Shown here piece by piece: positions 30,001 through 36,000 of a stretch of DNA of 64,000 nt. The position numbers were made by a program. Numbering within the stretch: the first letter of the stretch is position 1; each line of letters starts with the position of its first letter. Where the stretch lies: NCBI RefSeq assembly GCF_058153355.1, contig NZ_CM177019.1; one strand, 5' to 3'.

Positions 30001-33000
30001 GCCGGAAAAGACCCGCACAAGATGATGCGCATATGCGCCGCGCTGTACATGATTATGGCGAACCGCCACGACTGGCAGATGTTTATTGAGGCCACCGGAG
30101 ACGGCGGGAGCGGCAAGAGCACTTTCACGCACATAGCCAGCCTTCTGGCAGGGAAACAGAACACGGTAAGGCAGTATGACTTTCCGTGAGACAGATGCTG
30201 GCCAACGTGGGATATTTAACGCGGGTTAACATCGTTGTCAGAGCCGCATGGGTGAGCTGTTGCTACACCCCGGTATTTCCACCACGGAGGCCAGCATGAA
30301 CAACAATAACACATTGTACGTCGGGTTAGATGTTCACAAAGAATCGATTACTGTCGCTTATGCTATCAATTCAGAACCTGTTGAACTGATGGGTAAAATT
30401 GGCACATCACCTACTGATATTCAGAATCTTTGTAAACGTCTCAGGTCAAAGTCATCGCAGGTCAGTATCGTTTATGAAGCGGGGCCCTGTGGTTATGGAC
30501 TTTATCGTCGGCTGGTGAAATCCGGTTTTGACTGCATGGTCTGCGCCCCCTCACTTATCCCGAAAAAACCGGGGGAGCGGGTTAAAACCGATCGCCGTGA
30601 TGCCATCAGACTTGTGCGTTCACTGCGTGCAGGAGATCTTTCTGCTGTCTACGTACCCGGCATTGAAGATGAGGCATTCCGGGATTTGGCCCGGGCATGG
30701 GCATCTGCCCGCGATGATTTACGGCATGCAAGGCAACGTCTGAAATCGTTTCTTCTGGTTCATGGGGTCCATTATGTCGGGCGAGCAGATTGGGGCCCTG
30801 CACACCGACGCTGGCTCAGCAAATACTCATTCGAAAGTCCCTGGCGACAATTAGCTTTTGACGAACACCGTCGTACAATAGAAGACCGGCAGGCACAATG
30901 TGAACGGCTGGAATCCGCCCTGAAGGAGGCCGTTACCGAATGGAGGCTGTATCCGGTAGTAGAGGCGCTGCAAGCCATGCGAGGGATTCAGTTTATTACT
31001 GCGGTTGGATTAATTTCTGAACTGGGTGATCTGACCCGTTTTGAACATCCACGACAACTGATGTCATGGTTTGGTATCACGCCATCAGAATATTCATCGG
31101 GTGGAAGCAGACATCAGGGCAGCATTACCAAAGCCGGAAACAGCTATGCCAGAAAGCTATTGGTCGAGGCAGCGTGGAGTTACCGTCATCCGGCACGCAT
31201 CAGTCCGGCAATACAAAAAAGGCAGGAAAATTTACCCCGCCCCGTCATTGACAGAGCATGGGATGCTCAACTCAGGCTTTGTAAGAGGTATCGAAAACTT
31301 CAGGCCAAAGGAAAGAATGTCAATATTACAATTGTTGCTGTTGCACGTGAGCTGGCGGGTTTTATCTGGGATATGGGCCGAATAGCAATGTCTGTCGCAC
31401 AACAACCACAATGTCACAAATAAAAAATGAGAATAACCAGTTCCCTGAAGGCGACGTAGCCCGGTACAAGAGTAACCCACGTTAGCGCTTGGCGACGGCG
31501 GAACAAAGCTGATTCGCGACGTAAGAAAGTGGCAGGCTCATATGACGGACCTCTGTAATGCGGTATCCAACCCGCGAATATCAGCGTGATTCACCGTCGG
31601 ATTTACTGCTACGTCGCCCTCAGGGAATTAAACCTAAAAAGAAAATCGTCAAAATTAGAGATTCCGGTTTGACACGGAAAGTCATATCAGCGCTTGGCGA
31701 CGGCGGAACAAAGCTGATTCGCGACGTAAGAAAGTGGCAGGCTCATATGACGGACCTCTGTAATGCGGTATCCAACCCGCGAATATCAGCGTGATTCACC
31801 GTCGGATTTACTGCTACGTCGCCCTCAGGGAATTAAACCTAAAAAGAAAATCGTCAAAATTAGAGATTCCGGTTTGACACGGAAAGTCATATCAGCGCTT
31901 GGCGACGGCGGAACAAAGCTGATTCGCGACGTAAGAAAGTGGCAGGCTCATATGACGGACCTCTGTAATGCGGTATCCAACCCGCGAATATCAGCGTGAT
32001 TCACCGTCGGATTTACTGCTACGTCGCCCTCAGGGAATTAAACCTAAAAAGAAAATCGTCAAAATTAGAGATTCCGGTTTGACACGGAAAGTCATATCAG
32101 CGCTGAAATGACATCACTTGATGATGCTGGTGGACGTGCGCAGGTTGTCGGGAGTCGTCTTATCGTCCTGGCAGACCAGCCGAAATATACAGGCGAAGGA
32201 ACGGGCATCAAGAAAATCACGGGCGGCGACCCCGTGGAAATAAACCCGAAATATGAGAAGCGTTTTACGGCGGTAATCAGGGCGGTGGTGCTGGCAACCA
32301 ATAACAATCCGATGATATTCACCGAACGGGCCGGAGGTGTGGCACGTCGTCGCGTGATTTTCCGTTTCGACAATATCGTCAGTGAGGCCGAAAAAGACAG
32401 GGAGCTACCGGAAAAGATTGCGGCTGAAATCCCCGTTATTATCCGCCGCTTGCTGGCGAACTTTGCCGACCCTGAAAAGGCACGGGCTTTACTCATTGAA
32501 CAGCGTGACGGTGATGAAGCACTGGCAATAAAGCAACAGACGGATCCGGTTATTGAGTTTTGCCAGTTCCTGAATTTTCTGGAGGAAGCGCGCGGCCTGA
32601 TGATGGGCGGTGGTGGTGACTCTTCCAGGTACACGACCAGGAACAGCCTTTACCGAGTCTATCTGGCGTTTATGGCATACGCCGGAAGGAACAAGCCGCT
32701 AAATGTGGCTGAGTTCAGCAAAGCTATGAAACCCGCTGCGAAAGTTTACGGGCATGAATATATTACTCGGAAAGTTAATGGGGTTACGCAGACTAACGCA
32801 ATAACAACAGACGATTGCGATGCGTTTTTATAATTTTTTGCAAAAGCCCTCTACTTCCTCTACCTGAATGAAATAAACGCATATTATTCAATATGATAAG
32901 TTGGTAGAGGGCTATGTAGAAGGCTAATAAAAGCCCTCTACCTCTTCTACCTGATTTTATCAATTCCAGGTAGACAGGTAGAGGGCTGGTAGAAGGGGAT

Positions 33001-36000
33001 TAAAAGCCCTCTACCATGCTGAAAGGTGCGCCATTGCTGGCTTTTTGTGGTGCTTGGTAGAAGTGGTAGAGGGGGGGAGGCACAACTCAAAACTTTTTAA
33101 ACGAGGGGGTAAAAACAAAAATGCACACATCAGGAAAACTTAATAATCAGAAGAAACCACATAACCGCACTATTGACCTTACAGAGCACTGGCTGAGGTT
33201 GGCGATAAAAATCATCGATCGCAACACGGGAGAAGGATACGCAAAAGCACATCCCGAACTGATAAGCGCATTTATGACCACGGCGGCGGCAAACTTTGCC
33301 ACGCTGACAGAACGGGAGATTGCCGAAGCGGAACAGGTAACAACCATCAACGTTAAAACCGGAGAGGTGGAATCATGACAGCACAGATATCAGCTTACGG
33401 GCGGCTGGTGGACGACCCGCAGGTAAAACAGACCAGCAAGGGCACACCGATGACGCTGGCGCGTATGGCGGTATCTTTACCATGCAGCCAGGCACAGGAC
33501 GGGCAGGCGACGTTATGGCTGTCGGTCATCGCATTTGGCAAACAGGCCGACTTCCTGGCTAAACATCAGAAAGGCGACCTTATCAGCGTATCCGGCGCAA
33601 TGCAGGTAAGCCAGTGGACAGGCCAGAACGGCGAAACGCGGCAGGGATGGCAGATTATCGCAGACAGCGTAATCAGTGCCAGAACGGCGCGACCGGGCGG
33701 CAAAAAAGGCCAGCAGGGCCAGACTACTGACGCACTGAACAGGGCGAAACAACAGGCGGGCAATGATGATCCGTACGGGGATAACATACCGTTTTAATTC
33801 ACAACAGCGAACAGACTACTTACTGAGGAAAGTATGACAAAGCTGACCATTAACAGAAAACCTAAAGGTATTTATGACACACCGCAAAAAACGATTCAGG
33901 AGGAACTGGAGCAGCAGGATAAAGCCACTCTGGCACATACAGTGATGCCCAATAACCAGAAAGTGCAACCGAAGCTTACAGAAGCAACACCGTGGCAGCA
34001 TATGACCAGACGCCAGAGAAAGAACCGCAGACGTATTAATCGCCTTATTGAGTTATGGCCAGAACTATTCAACCGGGAAGCACCGAAACCATTAAAAAAA
34101 GGGATATTCGACGATCTGATACAGGATATTGCTGTCAGAGAACTGACCTTTGGTCCCGGGGTGCTACGTGCAGCAATAACATCTTATACACAATGCCCTC
34201 GCTATTACCGTGCATTAATGTCCGGTGATGTACGTTACGACATGAAAGGCCGGCCATGTGGCAAGGTAACACCGAAAGAGCAGCGTGACGCAGAAGCACA
34301 ACTAATGGCGTTGCATGCACAGCGCGAATGCCGGCACAGGACAACCAAGAAAGAGAAAAGTGTATGATTCACGACAGCAAAGCGGAAGCACTGGAAGCGC
34401 GTGGCCTGTACCGGAGAGCGGCGGCGCGGTGGGCTGAGGTCATCATGCTGGCGAATGATGACAAGGCACGGGAGCAGGCGGCAAAACGTCGCGCGGAATG
34501 TATCCACAAGGCAGCACGCCCACCAGCAAGGCAGGATAATTTCGGGGAGATGCGCGAAACCATCAGCCGGGCACATGCCGGGATGGGATTACATCAGCCC
34601 AATGGTAAGGCATTCAGGAAATACCCTGGATCGAAAAACTGCAGTCAGTGACGGAGGCCGGGATTTTTCCCGGCTTTTTTGTGCCAGTAAAAAGCCCGCA
34701 GCCAGAAGTGTTGCGGGCTTTGTTTTTCAGGTGATTGAAGTCAATGGGAAGAACGCGATCATCATGCGTTATCGTTTCATGAATTGCAATGATGTAGATC
34801 GTCATTTCAGTTTATGCAATCATAACCATTGTTTTGTTCAGGAGATATGACTATGAGAAAAGCCAGCGTGAAGCCCGTTTTACTCGCTCGTGATCAGATT
34901 GAAGCATTACAGCGCATCCAGGACGAGGAACGCCGCAATTCTCCGCTGGGGATTGCTCCGAGCATTCATGAGGTTGCCCGGCGTTTAATGCAGCGGGCGC
35001 TTTATCCCGTAGAACGTCCGGCCTGATGGTCGTGATTTTTTGGTGAAAAAAGAGAGGTGATAAAAATGCCAGCAAGCAAAGAAGATTTGCGATTAAAACT
35101 GACGGAGGTGGTTAACGCTCTGTCAGAGTCGCAGGGCTGCACTCCGCAGGAGATTATCGAAATTCTGAATGCGATCCCCGCGCAGGATTTCACAAAAGCA
35201 GACGAGGATAACGCGAATCAAAACATCGTCGCGTCAGTCGAAGATGAATCCTCACTGGCAGAAGCCCAGGCTAAAGCGGATTCCGCATACAGCAATATGG
35301 CCGTCGCGCTCCTGCCCCGTTTGCTGGTGAAAAGTCGATGGATTACCGCAAGCGCGCATTAATTGGCGCACAGAGGATAGCGAAAAAATTCAGAGATGTG
35401 GATATTCGTTCCGTTTCAGATTCTGCAACGCTGGCGGTGCTGGAAGATCAGATTTACAAGGCTGCTCAGGAAAGTGCTCAGTGGGCCGTGGAAAACACGC
35501 CGGGCCATTTGGGTAAAACCGTAAGAATGGATGAAGCTGGTCGTCGTATTACTGAATATCAGGGCGATCCGAACGTCTGGCTGAACGCCTTCAAAATCCC
35601 TCCCCGTCGCCTGGTCAAAATTAACGTTGCAAGCCTCGCGGGGGCATGAAAAACGTGCTGATTTCAGCCCTGCCGGATTTGGCGGGGCTTATTGCTTATA
35701 ACCGGATAACATTATGCTTTTAACAGAAATTGAGGCGGCGAAGCAGATTCGGGACGGACAGCTACCGTCGCCTTATCAGTTTTCCAACATGTGGCTGGTT
35801 AACCTGCGTATCACAGGAACCGGAATGGCCTACCGCGCCGAAGAAAAAGAATTTGTCTGGCGTTCACCGCAAACTTATCTCAATCCGCAGTTCCTGGAAC
35901 GTTGCGCCGGAGTACCCGTCATTATCGACCATCCCGAAAGCAAAACCCTTGAAGACGTGGGCGAACGGTCGCGCATTATTGGCACCGTCATGTTGCCGTA

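What the first reader, a model, noticed from the sequence alone, without database searches (positions are those of the whole stretch)
32842..33076. Iteron array immediately downstream of the replication gene: likely satellite origin, orphaned by IS disruption of pri-rep
Multiple direct and inverted copies of GCCCTCTAC-containing 20-25-bp motifs lie just after the pri-rep gene, the usual ori position. Because pri-rep is split by the IS110-like element, the island is probably replication-defective and immobile unless complemented.
Basis: partly seen in the sequence, partly recalled or inferred. Interest (0 to 1): 0.4.

Follow-up and report, generated by a model that had tools for sequence, protein, structure and literature searches.

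The report
Replication origin of a phage satellite
The repeat cluster is real and is the replication origin of a phage-parasitic island (a PICI) of a published type, left without its own initiator because an insertion sequence cut the adjacent initiator gene in two; this is an ordinary member of a known class.

Summary
Window 32845-33075 holds 12 copies of a 9-10 bp site with an invariant TCTACC core, 5 on one strand and 7 on the other. The same hexamer class averages about 0.1 per stretch of this length elsewhere in the window.

The sites form three head-to-head groups around spacers, two of them 76-79% A+T. They start 12 bp after the stop codon of a split pri-rep gene.

The island sits at tRNA-Gly(ccc) and carries int, alpA, isrK/C4 RNAs, DUF4222, pri-rep, ssb, proQ and perC. 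It is a Gram-negative PICI. Its Pri-Rep is 93-97% identical to that of EcCICFT073, whose pri-rep-ori segment was shown to replicate (Fillol-Salom 2018). The EcCICFT073 origin has the same position and layout.

Position, site number and orientation pattern are kept in 60 distinct relatives and in Xenorhabdus and Pantoea.

The base two positions upstream of the core (C or T) tracks three residues in the initiator's C-terminal winged-helix domain. That domain is homologous to the P4 origin-binding domain.

ISSso6 cuts pri-rep between Walker A and the rest of the ATPase. The origin is therefore intact but has no initiator in this window. "Immobile" is overstated.

This is a known kind and of low interest.

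The parts
32845..33075 (.). Whole iteron array (origin core): 12 sites NNN-TCTACC, orientation string ++--++---+--
32846..32864 (+). Iteron pair 1-2 (GCCCTCTACT, TTCCTCTACC), cores 9 bp apart
32865..32902 (.). Spacer 1: 38 bp, 79% A+T, GC minimum 0.20. This is the proposed DNA-unwinding region between convergent iteron pairs.
   Evidence: [quoted passage not shown]
32903..32923 (-). Iteron pair 3-4 (GCCCTCTACC, GCCTTCTACA on the - strand)
32933..32951 (+). Iteron pair 5-6 (GCCCTCTACC, CTCTTCTACC)
32952..32968 (.). Spacer 2: 17 bp, 76% A+T
32969..32998 (-). Iteron triplet 7-9 (CCTGTCTACC, GCCCTCTACC, CCCTTCTACC on the - strand)
33006..33015 (+). Single iteron 10 (GCCCTCTACC)
33016..33055 (.). 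Spacer 3: 40 bp, 50% A+T. It contains a conserved non-iteron block, CTGAAAGNNGCGCCATTRCTGG. Its role is unknown.
33056..33075 (-). Iteron pair 11-12 (CACTTCTACC, CCCCTCTACC on the - strand)
29149..30170 (+). pri-rep N-terminal fragment (residues 1-340; D5_N domain and Walker A). It is 93% identical to EcCICFT073 Pri-Rep.
30171..32098 (+). ISSso6 (IS110 family) insertion, 1928 bp, with transposase at 30248-31423. Boundaries are uncertain by 1-2 bp.
32099..32833 (+). pri-rep C-terminal fragment (rest of the SF3 helicase plus the origin-binding domain). It is 97% identical to EcCICFT073 Pri-Rep.
32540..32806 (+). Winged-helix origin-binding domain, homologous to the P4 alpha OBD (PDB 1KA8). Codons V-A-E-F-S-K at 32705-32722 are the putative specificity residues.
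33121..33797 (+). Conserved downstream genes of the replication module: an 85-aa protein (phrog_1231, function unknown) and SSB

Best explanation
The array is the replication origin (ori) of a Gram-negative phage-inducible chromosomal island. It is the cognate binding region for the island's own Pri-Rep initiator.

Proposed mechanism (inferred): the C-terminal winged-helix domain of Pri-Rep recognises the 9-10 bp sites (consensus C-C-N-TCTACC in this island). Sites spaced about one helical turn apart and arranged head-to-head bring Pri-Rep protomers to both sides of the A+T-rich spacers. The SF3-type helicase rings assemble there, melt the spacer and start bidirectional unwinding. The island-encoded SSB next door then coats the single strands.

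In this genome all 12 sites are intact. The initiator gene, however, has been cut by ISSso6 between Walker A and the rest of the ATPase. The origin can therefore fire only if a Pri-Rep of the same specificity class is supplied in trans.

What is shown: the repeats, their conservation, homology to a tested origin, the homology of the binding domain, and the gene disruption. What is inferred: binding, melting and helicase loading.
For: Enrichment: 11-12 sites in 235 bp, against 0.16 expected and a maximum of 2 elsewhere.

Position: the array starts 12 bp after the pri-rep stop codon. [quoted passage not shown] The EcCICFT073 pri-rep-ori segment replicated a plasmid, and deletion of ori or rep impaired it.

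Homology: the split Pri-Rep is 93% (N fragment) and 97% (C fragment) identical to EcCICFT073 Pri-Rep. The CFT073 intergenic region has the same number and order of TCTACC sites.

Conservation: 85 relatives give 60 distinct origin sequences, all with 10-12 sites and the same orientation string. TCTACC cores are at least 95% conserved while spacers vary. The same position and layout are kept in Xenorhabdus and Pantoea, where the protein is only about 60-65% identical.

Initiator-site coupling: the C-terminal 90 aa match the P4 origin-binding domain 1KA8 (E=1.3e-5 by sequence; best fold hit, E=1.5e-4). Residues A-E-x-S or N-D-x-G lie at the start of the helix that precedes the wing. They track C or T at site position -2, with 1 mismatch among 85 loci. 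The association begins abruptly at those codons.

A different initiator comes with a different array: a PICI at the same tRNA site carrying a RepA-type helicase has AAAGTGAGGA repeats directly after that gene.

Disruption.
Against: No experiment has been done on this sequence. Origin function is transferred from a homologue whose iterons differ at the specificity positions.

The covariation between the binding domain and the sites may rest on very few evolutionary events. The two are also only about 130 bp apart, so linkage alone could contribute. One natural mismatch exists (L044).

The structure model is of moderate confidence (pLDDT 63).

A conserved non-iteron block (33016-33041) is not explained by the model.

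The 584-aa protein has no recognisable primase catalytic domain in Pfam. How priming occurs is therefore open.
Confidence: 0.88

Rival explanations
1. The array is mainly a transcriptional operator. A regulator (Pri-Rep itself for autoregulation, or AlpA or PerC) would bind it to control the downstream operon (85-aa gene, ssb, proQ, perC), and it would not be an origin.
For: The array lies directly upstream of the next gene, which starts at 33121. Inverted repeats are typical of operators. In iteron plasmids, initiators often autoregulate through inverted half-sites (general knowledge).
Against: The promoter scan finds 2 weak matches against 1.2 expected, both inside the A+T-rich spacer, and no terminator. 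Twelve sites over 230 bp with A+T-rich spacers is far more than an operator needs. Deletion of the homologous region in EcCICFT073 impaired replication. GN PICIs are transcribed as one rightward unit. A secondary regulatory role is not excluded.
Confidence: 0.05
2. The array is one half of a two-part P4-type origin (ori plus crr). It would need a second iteron cluster elsewhere in the island.
For: The initiator's binding domain is homologous to that of P4 alpha. P4 needs two cis regions with the same iterons (from my own knowledge; also named in PMC6092414).
Against: There is no second cluster of TCTAC sites anywhere in the 64-kb window; the maximum is 2 per 235 bp. No P4 type I iteron (TGTTCACC) with up to 1 mismatch is present. 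The cloned EcCICFT073 pri-rep-ori segment alone was sufficient.
Confidence: 0.03
3. The array is a packaging signal (cos or pac) recognised by a terminase.
For: PICIs must carry a packaging signal. This island encodes a protein with weak similarity to a terminase small subunit (36392-36919).
Against: No lambda-type cosN is present in the region. The only near match is inside pri-rep and is at chance level. The sites covary with the initiator's DNA-binding helix, not with packaging genes. The array travels with the pri-rep module, while late regions are swapped independently.
Confidence: 0.02
4. The origin is not orphaned in practice. A second island in the same genome, outside the window, may encode a Pri-Rep of the same class that fires it in trans.
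For: E. coli genomes can carry up to 4 copies of this module. The sites show no decay relative to the relative with an intact gene: 94% identity and 12 of 12 sites kept.
Against: This cannot be assessed, because only 64 kb is available and it holds a single pri-rep. Lack of decay is equally explained by a recent insertion, since both gene fragments are still open reading frames.
Confidence: 0.15

Closest known systems
EcCICFT073 pri-rep-ori replicon (E. coli CFT073 PICI; Fillol-Salom et al. 2018, PMC6092414)
   Same: The gene order is the same: DUF4222, pri-rep, ori, 85-aa gene, ssb, perC. The initiator is 93-97% identical. The origin is in the same intergenic position, with the same TCTACC core, 11-12 sites in the same orientation order, the A+T-rich first spacer and the conserved GCGCCATT block.
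   Different: The two bases upstream of the core differ: CC/CT here, TG/TA in CFT073. Three residues of the putative recognition helix differ: A-E-x-S here, N-D-x-G in CFT073. The integration site differs: tRNA-Gly(ccc) here, and next to roxA and phoQ in CFT073. The late region also differs. Here the initiator gene is interrupted by ISSso6.
SaPI origins (SaPIbov1, SaPI1) of Gram-positive PICIs
   Same: The origin lies immediately 3' of the initiator gene. Two sets of short iterons flank an A+T-rich region. The initiator is a self-loading helicase. This comes and my own knowledge. A SaPI-type primase-helicase entry, 7OLA, is the second PDB sequence hit.
   Different: There is no sequence similarity between the iterons. 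Pri and Rep are often separate proteins. The island's transcription layout differs.
Satellite phage P4 alpha protein with ori and crr
   Same: The initiator has an SF3 helicase plus a C-terminal winged-helix origin-binding domain (1KA8 is the best sequence and fold hit). Short sites of about 8-9 bp are used in both orientations.
   Different: The P4 iteron TGTTCACC is absent. P4 needs two separated cis regions, while here there is a single cluster. The PICI protein is about 190 aa shorter and lacks the recognisable primase part. The published paper treats P4 and PICIs as separate lineages.
Iteron plasmids (pSC101, R6K, F, P1 type oriV with RepA/pi initiators)
   Same: A winged-helix initiator binds repeated sites next to an A+T-rich unwinding element.
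   Different: Those origins use 17-22 bp direct repeats, DnaA boxes and the host DnaB/DnaC helicase. Here there are no DnaA boxes or IHF sites, the sites are about 9-10 bp in convergent groups, and the initiator carries its own helicase.

Membership tests
Gram-negative PICI replication origin (Pri-Rep cognate ori) | Lies immediately 3' of the replication initiator gene | tested here: met
   The array starts 12 bp after the pri-rep stop codon at 32833. The rule is stated in PMC6092414.
Gram-negative PICI replication origin (Pri-Rep cognate ori) | Sets of iterons flanking an A+T-rich region | tested here: met
   Convergent pairs 32846-32864 and 32903-32923 flank a 38-bp spacer of 79% A+T.
Gram-negative PICI replication origin (Pri-Rep cognate ori) | Positional and sequence homology to an experimentally validated ori (EcCICFT073) | tested here: met
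   The flanking genes are 93-97% identical. The core, site order and conserved block are the same.
Gram-negative PICI replication origin (Pri-Rep cognate ori) | Host element has PICI hallmarks: int, alpA, rightward unidirectional genes, 10-20 kb size, specific att site, no tail or lysis genes | tested here: met
   tRNA-Gly(ccc) is at 20707-20780, int at 20945-22309 and alpA at 23288-23485. The int-alpA, isrK and C4 RNAs, DUF4222, ssb, proQ and perC are present. The island is about 14.5 kb without its two IS elements. attR was not found.
Gram-negative PICI replication origin (Pri-Rep cognate ori) | Supports initiator-dependent replication | not testable with these tools
   This needs a plasmid maintenance or amplification assay.
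Gram-negative PICI replication origin (Pri-Rep cognate ori) | Cognate initiator intact in cis | tested here: not met
   ISSso6 splits pri-rep after residue 340. This concerns whether the origin can function here, not what kind of sequence it is.
P4-type ori/crr | Type I iterons TGTTCACC | tested here: not met
   No match with up to 1 mismatch in 32800-33150.
P4-type ori/crr | Second cis-acting iteron cluster at a distance | tested here: not met
   No other TCTAC cluster in the window.
Iteron-plasmid oriV | DnaA boxes and IHF site beside direct iterons | tested here: not met
   No DnaA box with up to 1 mismatch and no IHF consensus. The sites are in both orientations.

The most novel reading that the evidence does not exclude
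Within a Pri-Rep family that is 95-99% identical, three residues at the start of the winged-helix recognition helix (A-E-x-S versus N-D-x-G) may switch origin recognition between CC-N-TCTACC and CT-R-TCTACC sites. This would create separate replication-specificity groups, so that co-resident PICIs do not fire or titrate each other's origins. On that reading this orphan origin, possibly together with the C-terminal fragment that still carries the binding domain, could act as a sink for incoming initiators of the same class.
Probability: 0.3. Interest if true: 0.35.

Novelty: new member of a known kind. Interest (0 to 1): 0.15.

Why it matters
The finding is mainly useful for annotation. It marks the origin of a degraded PICI in an IS-rich Escherichia/Shigella-type genome. 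It also shows that the island has lost autonomous replication through IS insertion, which is one step in the domestication or decay of a satellite.

The comparative data add one modest, testable point. PICI origins of this family come in at least two site classes, and these track a three-residue change in the initiator's DNA-binding helix. If confirmed, this would give a simple handle on replicon specificity and compatibility among satellites.

Tried and rejected
- **DnaA boxes, IHF consensus, GATC clusters and P4 type I iterons in 32800-33150:** none found.
- **Promoter and terminator scan of 32600-33300:** 2 weak promoter-like hits against 1.2 expected, and no terminator. A promoter or terminator role was therefore not pursued.
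- **Lambda-type cosN search:** chance level only.
- **Single-strand folding of the intergenic region:** z = -4.3. This only reflects the convergent protein-binding sites, and no RNA family matches there. A structured RNA was rejected.
- **attL/attR direct repeat between the tRNA end and about 39.3 kb:** nothing longer than 8 bp. The right end of the island (about 39290) is defined only by where island-free genomes resume alignment.
- **Genome-contig scan:** gave only 10 loci, but these were useful as distant relatives.
- **Published iteron sequences (Fig. 2a of PMC6092414):** they are not in the held text or supplements. I could not check whether this exact site class was already drawn there.
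Full report

Yes. Reading 32500-33500 shows the motif GCCCTCTAC three times on the + strand, at 32846, 32933 and 33006. Its complement appears at 32904, 32978 and 33066. Each copy is accompanied 8-12 bp away by a weaker copy (TCCTCTACC, TCTTCTACC, GGTAGAAGG or GGTAGAC).

A site table gives 12 sites with the core TCTAC(C), 5 on the + strand and 7 on the - strand. The orientation order is ++--++---+--. The repeat finder returns direct repeats of 26-27 nt at 89-92% identity and 15 inverted pairs.

The enrichment is extreme. YTCTAC occurs 43 times on both strands of the 64-kb window, and 11 of these lie within 32849-33071. A sliding 235-bp count reaches 11 here, with a mean of 0.16 and a maximum of 2 anywhere else.

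The sites form three convergent (head-to-head) groups around three spacers:

| Spacer | Coordinates | Length | A+T |
|---|---|---|---|
| 1 | 32865-32902 | 38 bp | 79% (local GC minimum 0.20) |
| 2 | 32952-32968 | 17 bp | 76% |
| 3 | 33016-33055 | 40 bp | 50% |

**2. What surrounds the array?**

The array begins 12 bp after the stop codon of a 241-aa ORF (32108-32833). This ORF carries the DUF5906 and Pox_D5 signatures. A 346-aa ORF with D5_N lies upstream at 29149-30189, and an IS110-family transposase sits between them.

Alignment to intact relatives shows that the two ORFs are halves of one gene. Window 28828-30170 and 32099-33703 are contiguous in E. coli A34 and Br_112. The insert is ISSso6.

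The cut falls after residue 340. That is between Walker A (GDGGSGKS, residues 317-324) and the rest of the ATPase. tblastn finds no other pri-rep in the window.

The wider element runs from tRNA-Gly(ccc) at 20707-20780 to about 39.3 kb. It carries:
- a P4-type integrase;
- an intact AlpA (23288-23485);
- the int-alpA, isrK and C4 RNAs;
- DUF4222, pri-rep, an 85-aa protein, SSB, ProQ/FinO, PerC and a DUF2213 protein.

This is the gene order of Gram-negative PICIs. It matches the annotated islands in E. coli A34, Br_112, CFT073 and ETEC1747.

**3. Link to a tested origin**

Fillol-Salom et al. 2018 (PMC6092414) make four relevant statements:
- the region immediately 3' of the initiator gene is the PICI origin;
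- the cloned EcCICFT073 rep-ori segment maintained a temperature-sensitive plasmid at the restrictive temperature;
- deletion of rep or of ori impaired this.

I retrieved EcCICFT073. Its Pri-Rep is 93% identical to the window's N-terminal fragment and 97% identical to the C-terminal fragment. Its pri-rep/next-gene intergenic region has the same series of TCTACC sites, the same A+T-rich first spacer and the same GCGCCATT block. The window array is therefore the positional and sequence homologue of an experimentally supported origin.

**4. Comparative evidence**

One scan of viral contigs gave 80 loci whose C-terminal fragment is 95-99% identical. Together with four E. coli loci and the window, they yield 60 distinct origin sequences. 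All have 10-12 sites, with essentially one orientation string. In an alignment of 53 full-length distinct origins, the TCTACC cores are at least 95% conserved. The two or three bases upstream of each core and most spacer positions vary.

A scan of species-representative genomes found relatives in Pantoea stewartii and four Xenorhabdus species at about 60-65% protein identity. There too the stop codon is followed at once by the same layout, built from TTATCTACC and TTGTCTACC.

A PICI at the same tRNA site in ETEC1747 carries a RepA-family helicase instead of Pri-Rep. It has a different repeat (AAAGTGAGGA, direct and inverted) directly after that gene. Initiator and array therefore travel as a module.

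**5. How the sites are probably read**

The last ~90 residues of Pri-Rep match the crystal structure of the phage P4 origin-binding domain, 1KA8 (phmmer E = 1.3e-5). An AlphaFold model of the last 110 residues has only moderate confidence (pLDDT 63; 79-85 over residues 51-80). Its best PDB fold hit is again 1KA8, followed by winged-helix domains of ORC/Cdc6 and MarR/Fur proteins.

In the model a helix (residues 69-82 of the segment) directly precedes a beta-hairpin. That is the usual place of the recognition helix and wing.

The amino-acid differences between the window protein and the CFT073 protein all lie in this domain. Across 85 loci, two forms of the helix start segregate with two forms of the site:
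- **V-A-E-F-S-K:** position -2 relative to TCTACC is C in 80% of 327 sites.
- **V-N-D-F-G-K:** position -2 is T in 93% of 295 sites and never C.

Only one origin type (L044) is mismatched.

Among 185 polymorphic nucleotides of the C-terminal fragment, association with site class is absent over the first ~600 nt (mean 0.08-0.18). It jumps to 0.9 or more exactly at 32707-32717, the codons of these residues. Xenorhabdus and Pantoea, which have T-class sites, also have G at the S/G position.

This fits direct reading of positions -2 and -1 by the helix. There are caveats. The helix codons are only about 130 bp from the array, so linkage contributes. The number of independent evolutionary events is small.

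**6. Mechanism**

Shown:
- a dense, deeply conserved, initiator-adjacent array with A+T-rich spacers;
- an initiator that combines an SF3-type helicase with a P4-like origin-binding domain;
- an SSB gene next door;
- homology to a functional replicon.

Inferred: Pri-Rep protomers bind the sites through their C-terminal domains. Neighbouring sites are 8-12 bp apart, about one helical turn. The convergent groups place helicase assemblies on either side of spacer 1 (and perhaps spacer 2), which melts. The rings then encircle single strands and unwind outward.

The match between 12 sites and the 12 binding domains of a double hexamer is suggestive but speculative, and the split is 5/7 rather than 6/6.

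No DnaA box, IHF site or GATC cluster is present. This fits a self-loading initiator rather than a DnaA/DnaB-dependent plasmid origin.

Priming is unclear. Pfam finds only D5_N, DUF5906 and Pox_D5. The first ~140 residues match only a PHROG of unknown function.

**7. Is the origin orphaned?**

All 12 sites are intact. The array is 94% identical to that of E. coli A34, whose pri-rep is whole. Both gene fragments are still open. The insertion therefore looks recent.

With the ATPase core severed, the encoded protein cannot be a working helicase, so the origin cannot fire from the island's own initiator. Other lesions exist. An IS66-family element (25999-28468) interrupts the early operon between the regulatory region and DUF4222/pri-rep. 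The integrase, otherwise 99% identical to that of ETEC1747, has lost its stop codon and gained 50 residues.

"Immobile" overstates the case. The published pri-rep deletion of EcCICFT073 still transferred at roughly 1% of wild type. Whether a class-matched initiator exists elsewhere in the genome cannot be told from 64 kb.

**8. Rivals**

- An operator-only role is unlikely. The promoter scan is at chance level, the array is large, and there is published deletion evidence. A secondary regulatory role is not excluded.
- A P4-like two-part origin is not supported. There is no second cluster and no TGTTCACC.
- A packaging site is not supported.
- A structured RNA is not supported. The fold signal only mirrors the inverted sites, and Rfam finds nothing there.

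**9. Novelty**

The kind is published, and this is a further member. It differs from the tested EcCICFT073 origin at the two specificity positions of each site. The covariation with three residues of the binding domain is a small, testable addition. Interest is low.

Noticed in passing
window 30165-30175 and 32090-32105; L005 3995-4005 and 5520-5530: ISSso6 sits at exactly the same point of pri-rep (GGTAAG | IS | CGCTGA) in a different PICI of E. coli VL40. That island's origin belongs to the other site class and is only 87% identical downstream. The cause is either target-specific insertion, as expected for IS110-family elements, or one old insertion followed by recombination.
   Followed up: partly
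window 31484-32104: The last 205 bp of ISSso6 are present as 3.0 perfect tandem copies, making the element 1928 bp instead of the usual 1524 bp. The unit boundary is AGCGCT. This hexamer occurs both at an internal IS site and at the junction of the IS right end with its target, so the internal site mimics the insertion target core.
   Followed up: partly
window 20945-22309: The island integrase is 99% identical over 404 aa to that of the ETEC1747 PICI. It has lost its stop codon and runs on for 50 more residues.
   Followed up: partly
window 25999-28468 and 39684-42152: There are two copies of a 2.47-kb IS66-family element in opposite orientation. One is inside the island's early operon (icd-like region). 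The other is just beyond the island's right end. Together they could mediate inversion or deletion of the replication and late region.
   Followed up: partly
window 22202-22269, 25506-25583, 25646-25733: Rfam matches above the gathering score were found for int-alpA RNA, isrK and C4 antisense RNA. These are the P4-like RNA immunity elements seen in many PICIs.
   Followed up: no
L096 26862-27275 and 27525-27865: The ETEC1747 PICI at the same tRNA-Gly site has a RepA-family helicase followed by its own AAAGTGAGGA iteron array. About 400 bp further on it has a second array of GGTAGAC sites (GTAGACAGTTGGTAGACAG) with no Pri-Rep gene. This may be another orphan origin left by a module swap.
   Followed up: partly
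window 33016-33041: A non-iteron block, CTGAAAGGTGCGCCATTGCTGG, lies between site 10 and the last site pair. It is strongly conserved in the E. coli relatives and is recognisable (AAAGCC-T-GCGCCA) in Xenorhabdus. Its role is unknown.
   Followed up: partly
window 29149-29560 (Pri-Rep residues 1-140): The so-called Pri-Rep is 584 aa and aligns only to the D5_N, helicase and binding-domain parts of longer phage primases (profile positions 350-780 of 802). Its first ~140 residues match only a PHROG of unknown function and no Pfam primase domain. Primase activity is therefore not evident from the sequence.
   Followed up: partly
L044 (IMGVR_UViG_3300029303_000153), ori after position 2226: This is the one natural mismatch: T-class iterons paired with the A-E-x-S form of the binding helix. 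It is either a recent recombinant or evidence that specificity is not strict.
   Followed up: no
window 38351-39276: Two overlapping ORFs (161 and 147 aa) lie at the right end of the island. They have no counterpart in the ETEC1747 relative and may be an accessory two-gene module. They were not analysed.
   Followed up: no
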